Shown: positions 1 through 14,575 of the stretch, in pieces | Layout of the letters: each line of letters opens with the position of its first letter | Position numbering within the stretch: the first letter of the stretch is position 1 | Source of the DNA: a virus | Taxonomy: Duplodnaviria; Heunggongvirae; Uroviricota; Caudoviricetes | Strand: one strand, 5' to 3' | IMG/VR virus record: IMGVR_UViG_3300002641_000714 | Length of the DNA: 20,800 nt | Translations under genes and position numbers: made by a program | The notes under the pieces: generated by a model | What the model was told of the DNA's origin: nothing | What the model saw: the letters and a program-made list of their open reading frames with translations, nothing else | The model's database searches: none

Positions 1-38
1 CTAATGCAACTTGGCCTACCGGAGCTAGCGGAATACCA
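1..38 (+). repeat. 38-nt exact direct repeat, copy 1 (copy 2 at 1159-1196)
   Basis: CTAATGCAACTTGGCCTACCGGAGCTAGCGGAATACCA occurs at 1-38 and 1159-1196, in the same reading frame. Confidence 0.95.
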
Positions 39-1226
39 ACAAATTGGACTACTATTTCAACAGCAAATATTATTCAATATAATCCAACTATGTCATTTAC
101 CTCATTAGGATATGTTACATTTACTGCATATGAAAATGATGTATGGTTCGGTTTAATTAATAAATCTACAGATTAGACATTATATTTAAGTAAAGATGGT
201 TTAAACTGGATGACAATACAAGCTCAATAGTTTATTATACTAAATAAAAATGAATCTATTTATGTTTGTGGTATATTAAGTAATAACTAGTCATCAAGTA
301 ATTATACACAATTTGGTATATTTGGCAAAACTAGTGCATCAGGAAATTGTAATACATTATGGAATTATAATGATTTAAATGCAAGTTTAAAACAATATTG
401 TGGATATAAGTTGTTTTATAATTGTTCTAGTTTGACTAGTGCGCCTGAATTACCAGCAACTACATTAACTACTTAGTGTTACTTATAGATGTTTTATAAT
501 TGTTCTAGTTTGACTAGTGCGCCAGCATTGCCAGCAACTACTTTAGCTAGTAGTTGTTACTATGGTATGTTCTGGGGTTGTTCTAGTTTGACTAGTGCAC
601 CTGAATTACCAGCAACTACAATAGCTGAAGGTTGTTACTCTAGTATGTTTTCTAGGTGTTCTAGTTTAACTAGTGCGCCTGAATTACCTGCAACTACTTT
701 AGCTAATAGTTGTTACTATAGTATGTTCTAGAATTGTTCTGGTTTAACTAGTGCGCCTGAATTACCTGCAACTACATTAGCTAGTAGTTGTTACTTATAG
801 ATGTTCTAGAATTGTTCTGGTTTAACTAGTGCGCCTGAATTACCTGCAACTACATTAGCTAGTAGTTGTTACTTATAGATGTTCTAGAATTGTTCTGGTT
901 TAACTAGTGCGCCTGAATTACCTGCAACCAGTTTAGCCATATATTGTTACAACAGTATGTTCCTTGGTTGTTCTAGTTTAACTAGTGCGCCTGAATTACC
1001 TGCAACTACATTAGCTAGTAGTTGTTACTCATAGATGTTCTATGGTTGTTCTAAACTTAGTTATATTAAATGTTTAGCTACTACAGGAATTAATCAAAAT
1101 AATTCAACTGCGAAGTGGGTTTCTGGTGTTGCTTCAACTGGAACATTTGTTAAAGACTCTAATGCAACTTGGCCTACCGGAGCTAGCGGAATACCAGCTA
1201 ACTGGACAGTTCAACCAGCCGCATAA
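1..1226 (+). CDS. BspA-like leucine-rich-repeat surface/virion protein, 5' partial, TAG read as Gln (about 407 aa in window)
   Basis: Frame 3 is open from 3 to TAA at 1224-1226 except for 11 in-frame TAGs (174, 228, 288, 474, 486, 729, 798, 807, 876, 885, 1032). It contains 26-aa repeats CSSLTSAPELPATTLAxxCYxxMFxx. A capping segment (NATWPTGASGIP) occurs at both ends. It joins track ORFs 489-731 and 1035-1226. Confidence 0.88.
423..1058 (+). repeat. 78-bp coding tandem repeat, 8 full units plus a partial ninth
   Basis: Units start at TGTTCT at 423, 501, 579, 657, 735, 813, 891, 969 and 1047. Units 735-812 and 813-890 are identical. Confidence 0.95.
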
Positions 1227-1232
1227 TATAAA

Positions 1233-1272
1233 AATTAAAAGAAGTTTCATTTATATGAGACTTCTTTTAATT
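1233..1272. terminator. Bidirectional terminator-like hairpin between convergent genes
   Basis: AATTAAAAGAAGTTTCAT-ttat-ATGAGACTTCTTTTAATT forms an 18-bp stem with one G-T pair. It overlaps the 3' end of the minus-strand gene. Confidence 0.75.
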
Positions 1273-2756
1273 CCTTCTTGAATACTTATATAATCCATTT
1301 TAATTAAAGGAATACTTTTATTTACTTCCTGCAGCAAATTATCTTTATTTCTTATTTCTGGAATGCATCTATATTTAATATTCTCATTATATTTGCATGC
1401 TTCTTTAGAAAACTCTTCAGTTGTCCATGTTTCTAAATTAACACAATTATATATTCCTCCTTTTAAATTATATCCAAACAACAATCCATTTACTGCATCA
1501 TCTATATATGTAAATGAACTTTTGTTTTGTCCATTATTATACAAAATAGTTTCTTTATCATTTAATAAATGCCATAATAATGTTCCTTCTCTAGGATTTT
1601 TTCCATATACATTATGCAATCTGATGCCTACTGCATCAGGATAATATAATTTTGCATACTCTTCATCAAATTTTTTGCTTAGACCATATAATGAAGTCGT
1701 GTTTGAATCATTTGCAGTGCTTGATGATGCATATACTAATTTTGTTCCATATTTAGAACATAAATCAACAATCTTAACAAAATCTGCAATATTATCTGAC
1801 ACTATTTGCTGATTATCTTCATTAAATACGCTTGTTTGTGCAGCTAAATGATATACACAATCAATTTCTTTCATTGCAAATAAAAATTCAACATATTTTA
1901 CTTCTAATCCTCGTTTTCTGTCAACTTCATAAACAACATTGTTTTGGTCATATTTAAGTTTATTTACTAATTCTTTTCCAATAAATCCATCGCTTCCAGT
2001 TACAATAATATGCTTTTTTGGAATTTTATTAGGAATCATTTTAATAGTTCCATTATTATAAATGTTACAATCTAAAACACCCATTGACTGGAATATTTTA
2101 CAGTCATGATCAATTCCTACAAATCTTTGTTTTGGATCTTTTGAATACTTTGCAAATGCATGACGCAATATAAATTGTTCAGAATTTAACGGATTTGCAA
2201 TATCAATATACTCTAAAGCTTCTTTATAAAACTTAATTAAAGCTTCTCTTTTTCCAATACAACATCCGGCATTAAAATATCGATATACTCCTTTTTGTGT
2301 TCTATTAGGAATAATGTCAATTAATACATCCGGATAGTTGTTACAAGATGGGTTAAACAATATGTCGTAATTAAATCCTTTAAACTTATCTAAAATATCA
2401 TCTAGATGGGTCAATAAAACATCATACCCATCTAAAAATAATATATATGGATGTTTAATCTTTTCTAATAAATTTAAGAAAAATTTAATTTTATTTGGCA
2501 TATACCACTCTTGTGTAGTATCATAATTGTCTGGAACACAATTATATATTGATATATTATTTTTTAAGCATTGTTGCAATAAGCAGCAACTCTGCACATC
2601 GGTCCATGTAGAAATTATTGCAAGCTGATCAAAATCTGCTGGTGTAATTTGTGCATTCTCAAAAATATATTCAAATGTTCTCGGAAGTTGAGATTTATTC
2701 TGTCCATGAAAATGAAGAACATTTGGATAAAAATTATTAAAATTAGTTATTTTCAT
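1251..2756 (-). CDS. Fusion of a PLOD/LH3-type glycosyltransferase domain and an NAD-dependent epimerase/dehydratase (extended SDR), 501 aa
   Basis: The N-half has ILFLDGYDV, YRYFNAGCCIG, EQ and IDHDCKIFQ, like the PLOD GT domain. The C-half has IIVTGSDGFIG (GxxGxxG), HLAA, YASSS, YGLSK (YxxxK) and RLHNVYG. No TAG; ends in TAA. Confidence 0.85.
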   Translation of the reverse strand: MKITNFNNFYPNVLHFHGQNKSQLPRTFEYIFENAQITPADFDQLAIISTWTDVQSCCLLQQCLKNNISIYNCVPDNYDTTQEWYMPNKIKFFLNLLEKIKHPYILFLDGYDVLLTHLDDILDKFKGFNYDILFNPSCNNYPDVLIDIIPNRTQKGVYRYFNAGCCIGKREALIKFYKEALEYIDIANPLNSEQFILRHAFAKYSKDPKQRFVGIDHDCKIFQSMGVLDCNIYNNGTIKMIPNKIPKKHIIVTGSDGFIGKELVNKLKYDQNNVVYEVDRKRGLEVKYVEFLFAMKEIDCVYHLAAQTSVFNEDNQQIVSDNIADFVKIVDLCSKYGTKLVYASSSTANDSNTTSLYGLSKKFDEEYAKLYYPDAVGIRLHNVYGKNPREGTLLWHLLNDKETILYNNGQNKSSFTYIDDAVNGLLFGYNLKGGIYNCVNLETWTTEEFSKEACKYNENIKYRCIPEIRNKDNLLQEVNKSIPLIKMDYISIQEGIKRSLI

Positions 2757-2878
2757 TATTATTTTTACATAATATTTTAAAATTATATGTTATTTATAAT
2801 TAAAGGTTTTTAATAAATATATTGAAAACAATAATTGATAAAACGAGCAATAATATAAAAAATATTATTGTTTTAATT

Positions 2879-3253
2879 ATGGCAAAGAGAAAGAAAAGAA
2901 AAAACTGGTTATCACGTTTATTTGATATGGATGATTAGACTGTATCAGCTTCAACAGTCTTTTTATTTTTAACATCGTTTATCGCATTATTTCTTTTATT
3001 AGTTCCAGCAATTGCAATGCTGATTGAAGTTTATTTTAATCATACTATTGCATCTGATATTTCAGGAATGGCAGAATATATTGCAGCCGTTTGCGGAATA
3101 TTTGCATCAGGTGGAATTCTAAAAGGCTGGACAAATTATACAAATTATAGATTCAATAAAAAATCTCCAGAGGAAATTGCACATAAATTGGAAAAAGAAA
3201 TAAAAGAAGAGCTTGAAGATGAAAATGATTCAGATAATGAATTGGATGCATAA
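2879..3253 (+). CDS. Holin-like small membrane protein, 124 aa, one TAG read as Gln
   Basis: ATG at 2879 is in frame with track ORF 3017-3253 through TAG at 2936. It has a basic N-terminus (MAKRKKRK), hydrophobic segments (VFLFLTSFIALFLLLVPAIAMLI; YIAAVCGIFASGGIL) and an acidic C-tail. The holin call rests on topology only. Confidence 0.55.
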
Positions 3254-13729: not shown

Positions 13730-14575
13730 ATGCATTTTGTACACTCTTTATGGACTAAACCGCTAATAGTTAATAGGCGTAATGTGGAATTCAAAACCGC
13801 GTTATTGACTACTATATTATGCAATGCAACTTCTGTAGCATGGATTAATCACTTAGGCGGTAAAATCAATTTATATGCAGACGGATTCGGAAGAGATATG
13901 TTAGGATTTCTTCCATATGATAATATTTATGATTTGAAAGTTCCTGTTCATATTCCAACTTGCACATGGGCATGCGGAAAATTTTTAGTTTTAGAACAGA
14001 TGCCGTTAGGAGATGTTCATATTGACGGTGATGTTTTTCTCAAATCTAATAAATTATTGGAATTATGTGCAGATGATTCATATGATATGGTTGTCCAGTC
14101 TATTGAAAATGATAAAACTACATTAAAGAAATACTATTCTAATGTTCGTGACATATTAAAAAGAAATGGTATTAAAACCTATTCTTGTTCTTTAGATGAA
14201 TCACCTTCATATAATTGCGGAACTATCGGATTCTTTAATCAAGAATTAAAACAAAAATATTTAGTTGAATATTTTACAACATTGAATAATATAATTAATA
14301 ATAAAGCATGTTTATTAGAATTAAATAAAAATTTAAATGCTATTCCCGATTTAATATTAGAACAACAATTTCTTTATGAACTTGCTAAACCATATAAAGT
14401 TAATAATTTATTAGGTGATGCTGAAACTATGTATAACAATGCAATTGAATTAAATTACCAGCATATATTAGGCGGTTTTAAAGAACAACAATTAAATAAT
14501 ATAATGGAAGAATTAAAATATGTTGACGAAACTATATATAAAGATACGATAAAACATGTTAATTTTCTTTTATAA
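13730..14575 (+). CDS. DUF6734-like protein with DxD motif (possible glycosyltransferase), 281 aa
   Basis: HSLWTKP...INLYADGFG...LPYD...WACGK...HIDGDVFL matches the pattern I recall for DUF6734. YNCGTIG resembles a GT-A motif. Confidence 0.6.
   Translation: MHFVHSLWTKPLIVNRRNVEFKTALLTTILCNATSVAWINHLGGKINLYADGFGRDMLGFLPYDNIYDLKVPVHIPTCTWACGKFLVLEQMPLGDVHIDGDVFLKSNKLLELCADDSYDMVVQSIENDKTTLKKYYSNVRDILKRNGIKTYSCSLDESPSYNCGTIGFFNQELKQKYLVEYFTTLNNIINNKACLLELNKNLNAIPDLILEQQFLYELAKPYKVNNLLGDAETMYNNAIELNYQHILGGFKEQQLNNIMEELKYVDETIYKDTIKHVNFLL

What the first reader, a model, noticed from the sequence alone, without database searches (positions are those of the whole stretch)
1251..2756. Apparently circularly permuted PLOD-type glycosyltransferase fused to a nucleotide-sugar epimerase
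Seen: the order of motifs is N-terminal KITN..YPNVLHFHGQNKSQL, then FLDGYDV, YFNAG, EQ and IDHDCKIFQ. Known (from memory of human PLOD3/LH3): the order is FVDSYDV, FLNSG, DDQ, LDHKSRIFQ, and only then RIRN...PIVVHGNGPTKLQL, whose His is a Mn ligand alongside the DxxD aspartates. Inference: the metal-ligand His segment has moved from the domain's end to its start. An in-frame TAA lies just upstream of the ATG, so this is not a truncation of a longer frame. Fusion to an extended SDR suggests one enzyme that makes and transfers an unusual sugar to virion protein, host surface or DNA.
Basis: partly seen in the sequence, partly recalled or inferred. Interest (0 to 1): 0.72.

Follow-up and report, generated by a model that had tools for sequence, protein, structure and literature searches.

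The report
Circularly permuted glycosyltransferase fused to epimerase
A giant gut phage encodes a sugar-transferring enzyme whose metal-binding histidine strand has moved from the end of the domain to its start, fused to an enzyme that probably prepares the sugar; the rearranged form turns out to be a large, unnamed protein family.

Summary
Window 1251-2756, minus strand, is one intact 501-aa ORF. It has no in-frame TAG and a TAA 12 codons upstream of the ATG. Residues 1-247 form a GT-A glycosyltransferase homologous to the PLOD/LH3 and mimivirus R699 GT domain. Residues 248-501 form a compact extended SDR that resembles UDP-sugar 4-epimerases.

The permutation reading is supported at sequence level:
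- A profile of residues 1-37 hits canonical relatives at their C-terminal His site in 112 of 121. Scores reach 22.5 bits, against 2.7 or less for controls.
- hhalign gives a main match (38-224 to 19-210) plus a second match (3-24 to 220-242).
- H15 is invariant together with D109 and D112.
- The model aligns to LH3 34-245 through residues 40-243, leaving complementary ends unmatched.

The His-to-DxxD distance could not be measured, because the tools return no coordinates.

The rearrangement is not peculiar to this gene. At least 155 clusters, mostly stand-alone proteins of about 235 aa and all unnamed, share the order. They separate from canonical forms by one branch on a core-only tree. About 25 clusters share the GT-SDR fusion, and the reverse order also exists.

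The host record is a Lak-like megaphage. The acceptor is unknown. This scan had not met the family before.

The parts
1251..2756 (-). Whole gene: 501-aa bifunctional protein (permuted GT-A domain plus extended SDR), stop TAA at 1251-1253
   Evidence: AF2 full-length model: pLDDT 96.4, pTM 0.92
2646..2756 (-). Residues 1-37: relocated 'C-His' segment (strand 13-15 with invariant H15, then helices 20-34). It is homologous to the C-terminal ...YP-x-F-x-H-F-N-G segment of canonical PLOD-type GTs
2712..2714 (-). Codon of H15, the predicted metal/donor-sugar ligand. It is equivalent to LH3 H253 and R699 H216
   Evidence: Invariant in A1 and in 26 fused homologues. Roles of the equivalents are taken from PMC6082870 and PMC12279948
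2079..2645 (-). Residues 38-226: GT-A core collinear with LH3 34-~230. It carries K89, D109-G-Y111-D112 (2421-2432), N162/G164, E193-Q194 and D216...F222-Q223
2016..2078 (-). Residues 227-247: retained beta-hairpin (228-232, 237-242) and a very short linker into the SDR
1254..2015 (-). Residues 248-501: compact extended SDR resembling UDP-sugar 4-epimerases. Conserved features: T253-G-x-x-G-F-I-G260, D279, S344-S346, Y357-x-x-x-K361
2757..2792 (-). 5' leader with an in-frame TAA at 2790-2792. A TATAAATA at 2791-2798 is no more frequent in the window than chance predicts

Best explanation
The gene encodes a two-domain enzyme.

Domain 1 (residues 1-247) is a Mn2+-dependent, probably retaining, UDP-sugar glycosyltransferase of the PLOD/LH3-R699 lineage of the GT-A fold. 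It is a natural circular permutant. The strand-helix unit carrying the metal- and donor-contacting histidine is called the 'C-His' in GT-A nomenclature, and in every canonical relative it follows the D-x-x-x-x-IFQ motif and a beta-hairpin. Here it is encoded at the N-terminus (H15). It is inferred to fold back beside the D109-x-Y-D112 motif.

Domain 2 (248-501) is an NAD+-type extended SDR with a complete Ser/Tyr/Lys catalytic set. It most resembles UDP-hexose, UDP-hexuronate and UDP-HexNAc C4-epimerases.

The most likely mechanism is that the SDR epimerises a common host UDP-sugar at C4 and the rigidly attached GT transfers the product to an acceptor.

Shown here: homology, motif order, residue conservation, the existence and size of the permuted clade, and recurrent GT-SDR fusion in both orders. 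Inferred: the 3-D position of H15, the donor identity, substrate hand-over between the domains, and the acceptor. The permutation itself is old and defines a clade. A duplication-then-trimming origin is plausible because tandem canonical forms exist, but it is not demonstrated.
For: Sequence evidence that the His segment moved:
- An HMM of family residues 1-37 hits 112 of 121 canonical GT_PLOD proteins at their C-terminal ...PCFVHFNG... site. Best-domain scores have median 8.3 and maximum 22.5 bits, against maxima of 2.7 and 2.1 for reversed and shuffled sequences.
- hhalign of the permuted against the canonical alignment gives hit 1, 38-224 to 19-210, E 5.5e-28. Hit 2 is 3-24 to 220-242, E 1.3e-3, starting immediately after the end of hit 1 in the template.
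- Tail lengths are reciprocal. Permuted stand-alone proteins have a median of 41 aa before the core and 16 after. Canonical ones have 0.5 before and 85 after.
- In R699 the printed segment NRIFNGYTNSYPVFA (chain 204-218) precedes H216. It matches KITNFNNFYPNVL-H15.

Residue conservation:
- H15, K89, D109, D112 and G164 are invariant in 86 sequences.
- H15 is invariant in 26 fused homologues, while H249 is not.
- Residue mapping to R699 (with PMC12279948): K62 to K89, D83/Y85/D86 to D109/Y111/D112, N138 to N162, D163/Q164 to E193/Q194.
- The LH3 metal site is D112, D115 and H253 (PMC6082870).

Structure:
- AF2 gives pLDDT 96 and pTM 0.92 for the domain, with residues 1-40 at 93-96.
- VIA aligns the model to LH3 with Z 17, rmsd 3.2 over 195 residues, model 40-243 to LH3 34-245.

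Family:
- Order classes: 114 permuted and 0 canonical-only among relatives of this domain; 65 canonical among relatives of P0135.
- On a core-only tree one change separates the two orders, branch support 97.

SDR:
- Invariant TGxxGFIG, D279, SSS and YxxxK.
- Best structural matches are the UDP-sugar 4-epimerases MoeE5, TM0509, WbgU, WbpP and BcUGAepi, Z 28-30, rmsd about 2.0-2.3 over about 250 residues.

Fusion:
- About 25 clusters at 46-95% identity share the architecture.
- P0016 carries a different extended SDR N-terminal to a permuted GT.
- The full-length model has pTM 0.92 with a linker of about 5 residues.
Against: - No coordinates are available, so the predicted distance between H15 and D109/D112 was never measured. 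The 3-D equivalence of the N-terminal unit to LH3 246-270 is therefore inferred.
- The second hhalign hit is short (22 columns, probability 19%).
- No NCBIfam equivalog for any epimerase reaches its cut-off, and dehydratases score only 1-3 Z units lower. The SDR reaction is therefore not fixed.
- Stand-alone homologues of the SDR (43-50% identity) lie in small phage contigs with no PLOD-type GT within 6 kb. Most permuted GTs have no SDR. The two activities are therefore not obligatorily coupled.
- The tree uses FastTree and sequences gathered with two different queries, so the sampling is biased.
Confidence: 0.8

Rival explanations
1. The N-terminal His segment is an independently acquired extension that converged on an H-F-x-G motif after loss of the canonical C-His. 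It is not a relocated homologous segment.
For: The segment is short. The second hhalign hit has only 19% probability. GT-A families have lost the C-His repeatedly (PMC7185993). GT6 enzymes align to the model from residue 5, so a strand-helix unit N-terminal to the first Rossmann strand exists in other GT-A families.
Against: The similarity extends beyond the His to the flanking pattern [KR]-I-x-N-x(4-5)-Y-P-x-[VF]-x-H-F-x-G. That pattern is found in 112 of 121 canonical proteins at one site, far above the controls. The template position follows directly on the end of the main alignment. The permuted proteins lack precisely the C-terminal tail of about 70 aa that canonical ones have.
Confidence: 0.08
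2. It is a gene-model artefact. The N-terminal segment is the tail of a destroyed upstream GT domain, left from a former tandem or longer gene, and is not functional in this protein.
For: Tandem canonical GT_PLOD proteins exist (P0135, P0270-P0273).
Against: - There is an in-frame TAA 12 codons upstream and no upstream minus-strand ORF.
- In the order classification, 114 of 149 relatives carry the His segment upstream of the core; the printed sequences and the 86-sequence alignment, in which M1 is nearly invariant, begin with it within about 15 residues of the start codon.
- H15 is invariant.
- AF2 places residues 1-40 with pLDDT 93-97.
Confidence: 0.02
3. The fusion is a DNA-modifying enzyme. 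It glycosylates 5-hydroxymethylcytosine in phage DNA, and the SDR makes the donor.
For: The same record encodes a close homologue of T4 gp42 dCMP hydroxymethylase (E 1.7e-56 to 1B49), as does the 380-kb relative that carries the orthologous fusion. No GT2, GT4-type or GT8 gene was found in the 204-kb record. Stand-alone homologues of the SDR sit next to a C5-cytosine methylase in small phages.
Against: The record is only about 41% complete. The 380-kb relative has a GT2 cluster elsewhere. The gene lies about 28 kb from the gp42-like gene. All characterised relatives (LH3, R699) and the structurally next-nearest PBCV-1 A64R act on proteins. The T4 glucosyltransferase Pfam search had no valid positive control.
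Confidence: 0.1

Closest known systems
Human LH3/PLOD3 N-terminal GT domain (PDB 6FXR, 6WFV) and Pfam PF25342 GT_PLOD
   Same: GT-A fold (Z 17, rmsd 3.2, 195 residues). D-x-Y-D metal and uridine motif. The LNSG-type Asn, acidic-Gln pair and D-H-x-x-x-IFQ motif. A His in a hydrophobic strand followed by G.
   Different: In LH3 the His (H253) follows the IFQ motif and hairpin. Here it is residue 15, before the first Rossmann strand. The 'glycoloop' is shorter. There are no accessory or lysyl-hydroxylase domains. The Pfam model covers only positions 55-189 of 246 when the domain is scanned alone.
Acanthamoeba polyphaga mimivirus R699 collagen glucosyltransferase (PDB 9DYT, 9E92)
   Same: Best sequence-profile hit in the PDB (E 1.1e-11) and Z 16. 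Equivalents of K62, D83/Y85/D86, N138, D163/Q164 and H216 are all present.
   Different: R699 has the canonical order and a second Rossmann-like domain, and it is a dimer. Its H216 segment lies C-terminal. It has no SDR.
UDP-sugar C4-epimerases of the extended SDR family (MoeE5 6KVC, T. maritima TM0509 4ZRM, WbgU 3LU1, B. cereus UDP-GlcA 4-epimerase 6ZLK)
   Same: Whole-domain alignment at Z 28-30. TGxxGxxG, an Asp after beta-2, and the SSS...YxxxK catalytic set. No dehydratase Asp-Glu pair.
   Different: About 50-80 residues shorter (252 aa). Only about 13 residues separate the catalytic Ser and Tyr. It is below every NCBIfam equivalog cut-off. It is fused to a GT.
The 'C-His' element of the GT-A common core (Taujale et al. 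2020, PMC7185993)
   Same: A metal-coordinating His in a terminal strand that complements the DxD motif.
   Different: It is described there only in the C-terminal tail, or as lost or substituted. The paper contains no mention of permutation. Here it is encoded at the N-terminus.

Membership tests
PLOD/LH3-type GT-A domain (Pfam PF25342) | Score above Pfam's gathering cut-off | tested here: met
   40.1 bits against 27. 70 of 86 family members match at E<1e-3.
PLOD/LH3-type GT-A domain (Pfam PF25342) | Non-canonical D-x-x-D metal motif with an embedded uridine-stacking Tyr | tested here: met
   D109-G-Y111-D112. Both Asp are invariant in 86 sequences, and the Tyr is invariant in 26 fused homologues.
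PLOD/LH3-type GT-A domain (Pfam PF25342) | GT-A fold superposable on LH3 and R699 | tested here: met
   Z 17.0 to 6WFV and Z 16.0 to 9DYT.
PLOD/LH3-type GT-A domain (Pfam PF25342) | Metal-site His located C-terminal to the D-H-x-x-x-IFQ motif (canonical sequence order) | tested here: not met
   The His is residue 15. The only His after IFQ (H249) is not conserved. Pfam positions 190-246 are unmatched when the domain is scanned alone.
PLOD/LH3-type GT-A domain (Pfam PF25342) | Mn2+-dependent retaining transfer from a UDP-sugar | not testable with these tools
   Requires an enzyme assay.
Circular permutant of that domain | Both pieces homologous to the parent fold, in swapped order | tested here: met
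Circular permutant of that domain | The relocated piece occupies the same 3-D position, with the His beside DxxD | not testable with these tools
   Structure prediction returns no coordinates, and all available aligners are sequential. Indirect support: pLDDT 93-97 for residues 1-40 and complementary unaligned ends.
Extended SDR, UDP-sugar 4-epimerase type | TGxxGxxG dinucleotide motif and an acidic residue after beta-2 | tested here: met
   T253-G260 and D279 are invariant in 26 homologues.
Extended SDR, UDP-sugar 4-epimerase type | Catalytic Ser/Thr plus YxxxK, without the dehydratase Asp-Glu | tested here: met
   S344-S346 and Y357/K361 are invariant. The sequence after the Ser run is T-A-N.
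Extended SDR, UDP-sugar 4-epimerase type | Whole-domain structural match to characterised 4-epimerases | tested here: met
   Z 28-30 to MoeE5, TM0509, WbgU, WbpP and BcUGAepi. Dehydratases and decarboxylases score 26-27.4.
Extended SDR, UDP-sugar 4-epimerase type | Reaches a curated equivalog model (for example galE TIGR01179) | tested here: not met
   No NCBIfam model reaches its cut-off. The best is heptose_epim at 59.8 against 274.6.

The most novel reading that the evidence does not exclude
The permuted GT-epimerase fusion is the enzyme that decorates the megaphage's hydroxymethylcytosine DNA with a sugar it epimerises itself. That would make it a GT-A DNA glycosyltransferase of a new kind. 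It would sit on top of what appears to be the first documented natural circular permutation of the GT-A fold.
Probability: 0.1. Interest if true: 0.85.

Novelty: new variant of a known kind. Interest (0 to 1): 0.6.

Why it matters
GT-A glycosyltransferases are among the most surveyed enzyme folds. Their metal-binding 'C-His' is treated as a C-terminal element, and a survey of half a million sequences does not mention permutation. This finding adds three things.

1. A large natural clade in which that element is encoded first shows that the fold tolerates re-threading of an active-site strand.
2. It explains why Pfam covers these proteins only partially and why they are all left as 'hypothetical'.
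3. It gives protein engineers a natural template for permuted GT-A designs.

The recurrent fusion with nucleotide-sugar SDRs, in both orders, gives a testable handle on the donor sugar. Its presence in Lak-type megaphages that also make hydroxymethyl-dCMP points to an unstudied glycosylation step in these uncultured gut phages.

Tried and rejected
- The search for related loci with the 86-sequence alignment had no searchable stretch. Scans with P0094 in genome contigs and P0022 in viral contigs found nothing.
- megablast of the gene against GenBank phages gave no match.
- tblastn of P0001 found only a canonical GT (Roseobacter phage CRP-6 gp58, GT25 + GT_PLOD + 2OG oxygenase) and unrelated epimerases.
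- tblastn of the typical family member P0022 against phages gave no match.
- BFVD holds only canonical PLOD-like giant-virus proteins, with TMq 0.59 or less.
- The giant-virus idea was rejected. There is no NCLDV capsid hit (though the control was silent). There are phage-type neighbours and TAG=Q recoding, and earlier notes identify a Lak-like megaphage.
- The idea that H249 in 'HIIVTG' is the real C-His was rejected, because H249 is not conserved. This resemblance is why Pfam's alignment runs to residue 257 in the full protein.
- The idea that tandem canonical proteins are the closest canonical relatives was rejected. Per-domain scores resemble those of other canonical groups.
- A second, remnant copy of the His segment at the C-terminus was not detected by the HMM.
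- TATAAATA upstream of the gene has 7 sites in the window against 8.8 expected.
- No PLOD-type GT lies near stand-alone SDR homologues.
- Literature searches for a permuted GT-A or PLOD GT found nothing relevant.
Full report
OBSERVATION

The feature is one intact gene on the minus strand of 1251-2756 (501 codons, stop TAA).
- KITN 2-5
- YPNVLHFHGQNKSQL 10-24
- FLDGYDV 107-113
- YFNAG 160-164
- SEQ 192-194
- IDHDCKIFQ 215-223

After these come the SDR motifs HIIVTGSDGFIG 249-260 and YGLSK 357-361.

An in-frame TAA lies 12 codons upstream of the ATG, and the open frame is 512 codons stop to stop. The record is a TAG-recoded phage (see the context section below). The upstream stop is TAA and the gene has no in-frame TAG, so the start is safe under either code.

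Pfam sees GT_PLOD (PF25342) and Epimerase (PF01370). When the N-terminal domain is scanned alone, only profile positions 55-189 of 246 are matched.

IS THE DOMAIN PERMUTED?

An exhaustive HMMER search with residues 1-247 found 547 proteins at E<1e-3. Most of the best 150 are stand-alone proteins of about 230-250 aa that align end to end with residues 1-226. Nearly all carry an H-F-[QP]-G type motif at about residue 15. In an 86-sequence alignment the only invariant residues are H15, K89, D109, D112 and G164.

Canonical relatives were gathered with P0135. They begin directly with the first Rossmann strand and carry ...Y-P-C-F-[VI]-H-F-N-G... about 30-40 residues after the IFQ motif.

Four tests bear on homology of the moved segment.

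1. An HMM built only from family residues 1-37 hits 112 of 121 canonical proteins at that C-terminal site. Best-domain scores have median 8.3 and maximum 22.5 bits. The maxima for reversed and shuffled versions of the same proteins are 2.7 and 2.1.
2. hhalign of the permuted alignment against a canonical stand-alone alignment gives a main hit, 38-224 to 19-210 (E 5.5e-28). A second hit, 3-24 to 220-242 (E 1.3e-3), lies directly after the end of the first in the template. This is the expected signature of a circular permutation.
3. Tail lengths are reciprocal. Permuted stand-alone proteins have a median of 41 aa before the core and 16 after. Canonical ones have 0.5 before and 85 after.
4. The mimivirus R699 chain segment printed (NRIFNGYTNSYPVFA, chain 204-218) precedes the His that the R699 paper numbers H216. 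It matches KITNFNNFYPNVL-H15 almost residue for residue.

The literature fixes the role of this His:
- In LH3 the metal site is formed by D112, D115 and H253 (PMC6082870).
- In R699, D83 and D86 bind Mn2+, Y85 stacks on uridine, and H216 contacts O2 of the glucose (PMC12279948).

Using the alignment, these residues map onto this protein as follows: K62 to K89, D83/Y85/D86 to D109/Y111/D112, N138 to N162, D163/Q164 to E193/Q194, and H216 to H15.

STRUCTURE

AF2 with the family alignment gives pLDDT 96 and pTM 0.92. Residues 1-40 score 93-96 and form a strand (13-15) followed by helices (20-34).

The best solved matches are the LH3 GT domain (Z 17.0, rmsd 3.3, 195 residues) and R699 (Z 16.0). 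Model residues 40-243 align to LH3 34-245. Model residues 1-39 and the LH3 His segment beyond residue 245 are left as complementary unmatched ends.

I could not measure the H15 to D109/D112 distance. No coordinates are returned and all available aligners are sequential.

The alternative that H249 in 'HIIVTG' is the real C-His is excluded, because H249 varies in the 26 fused homologues while H15 is invariant. That resemblance is what makes Pfam's alignment run to residue 257 in the full protein.

A FAMILY, NOT A ONE-OFF

I classified sequences by whether the His-segment hit lies before or after the core hit:
- 155 permuted
- 65 canonical
- 6 tandem proteins

Among relatives of this domain there are 114 permuted and no canonical-only sequences.

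A tree built from the core region only, with the His segment excluded, separates 51 permuted from 47 canonical rows by a single branch with support 97. This uses FastTree and sampling biased by the two queries. It is compatible with one old permutation event.

Tandem canonical proteins exist (P0135, P0270-P0273), as does a tandem of two permuted domains (P0024). Permutation by duplication and trimming is therefore plausible. The tandem forms are not specially close to the permuted clade, however.

All family members that could be looked up are unnamed or 'hypothetical protein' from metagenomes. None is in 50,697 GenBank phage records at tblastn sensitivity. BFVD holds only canonical forms. A survey of the GT-A core that defines the 'C-His' does not mention permutation, and three literature searches found no description of one.

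THE SDR HALF

The following are invariant in the fused family:
- T253-G-x-x-G-F-I-G260
- D279 after beta-2
- S344-S346
- Y357-x-x-x-K361

There is no dehydratase Asp-Glu pair.

The full-length model has pLDDT 96.4 and pTM 0.92, with only about 5 residues between the last GT strand and the first SDR strand. Residues 248-501 align over their whole length with UDP-sugar C4-epimerases at Z 28-30 and rmsd 2.0-2.3. These are MoeE5, TM0509, T. thermophilus GalE, WbgU, WbpP and B. cereus UDP-GlcA 4-epimerase. Dehydratases and decarboxylases follow at 26-27.4.

No NCBIfam equivalog reaches its cut-off. The domain is about 50-80 residues shorter than those enzymes. 'C4-epimerase-like' is therefore the best label, not a proven activity.

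FUSION AND COUPLING

About 25 clusters at 46-95% identity share the GT-SDR architecture. P0016 and its cluster, on contigs of about 397 kb, carry a different, full-size extended SDR in front of a permuted GT. Two independent fusions argue for a functional link between nucleotide-sugar tailoring and this GT.

Three observations weigh against obligatory coupling:
- Most permuted GTs stand alone.
- Some close relatives carry a degenerate remnant in place of the SDR.
- Stand-alone homologues of the SDR lie in small phage contigs next to a C5-cytosine methylase, DUF4417 and terminase genes, with no PLOD-type GT within 6 kb.

CONTEXT

The window is the first 20.8 kb of a 204-kb IMG/VR record that is about 41% complete. 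Earlier notes of this scan call it a Lak-like megaphage that reads TAG as Gln. Three results here are consistent with that:
- The neighbouring plus-strand gene at 3-1226 is open only with 11 TAG read through. It encodes a BspA-type leucine-rich-repeat protein.
- The orthologous fusion gene (62% identity) in a 380-kb record contains two in-frame TAG.
- The record encodes a close homologue of T4 dCMP hydroxymethylase (E 1.7e-56 to 1B49).

The GT gene is a lone minus-strand gene between plus-strand genes. The orthologue has the same inverted placement.

The acceptor is unknown. Candidates are a virion or secreted protein, a host envelope glycan, or hmC DNA.
- Protein: a stand-alone permuted GT in another contig is also tail-to-tail with a 47%-identical LRR protein.
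- DNA: no GT2, GT4-type or GT8 gene is present in this partial record, but the 380-kb relative has a GT2 cluster.

VERDICT

The permutation reading is supported at sequence and family level and is consistent with the model, but the decisive distance measurement is missing.

This is a new variant of a known kind: a large, unannotated, circularly permuted clade of the PLOD/LH3-type GT-A domain. Here it is fused to a compact UDP-sugar-4-epimerase-like SDR in a Lak-like megaphage. The scan had not recorded this family before.

Noticed in passing
window 3-1226 (+), read with TAG=Q: BspA-type leucine-rich-repeat protein with 11 in-frame TAG codons, tail-to-tail with the GT-SDR gene. In L009 a stand-alone permuted GT (40% identity) is likewise tail-to-tail with a 47%-identical LRR homologue (L009:2962-4107, minus strand). 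This may point to an acceptor, or it may be coincidence, since such LRR genes are said to be abundant in these phages.
   Followed up: partly
G000:C1 about 30795-31496 (L005:1507-2208, minus): Close homologue of T4 gp42 dCMP hydroxymethylase (E 1.7e-56 to PDB 1B49). An 80%-identical copy is in the 380-kb relative (L019).
   Followed up: yes
L010:6001-6837 and neighbours (contig labelled as a Lachnospiraceae MAG); also L011-L016: Stand-alone 278-aa homologues of the SDR half (43-50% identity). They sit between a C5-cytosine DNA methylase, DUF4417 and an LPD3-like gene on one side and small and large terminase plus portal on the other. The contigs are binned to MAGs of unrelated phyla, so they are probably phages. 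What a short epimerase-like SDR does in that position is unexplained.
   Followed up: partly
P0135, P0270-P0273 (canonical tandems); P0024 (tandem of two permuted domains): Natural two-domain tandem repeats of both the canonical and the permuted GT. The canonical tandems are the kind of intermediate that a duplication-and-trimming route to permutation requires.
   Followed up: partly
P0078 (619 aa); P0153 (653 aa): P0078 has a borderline Pfam match to Mtd_N (phage tail-fibre N-terminal domain; 26.2 bits against a cut-off of 26.3), followed by a permuted GT at 376-596. P0153 combines a permuted GT with GT2 and Glyco_transf_7C modules.
   Followed up: no
P0177-P0179 (325-335 aa, on contigs of 133-393 kb): Close relatives of the GT half (47-56% identity). 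The SDR is replaced by a tail of about 100 aa whose start resembles a degenerate Rossmann strand (YVYLGVDG in place of IIVTGSDG). This may be decay of the fusion.
   Followed up: partly
window 2822-3253 (+), read with TAG=Q: Divergently oriented 143-aa protein with a basic N-terminus, predicted membrane helices and an acidic tail. It has only weak PgaD-like and DUF3899 matches.
   Followed up: no
window 13730-14575 (+): 281-aa protein matching Pfam DUF6734 (E 6e-14). Function unknown.
   Followed up: no
L004:4799-5962 (+): An IMPDH/GMP-reductase-like gene lies immediately upstream of, and overlaps by one base, a stand-alone permuted GT in an 11.9-kb viral contig.
   Followed up: no
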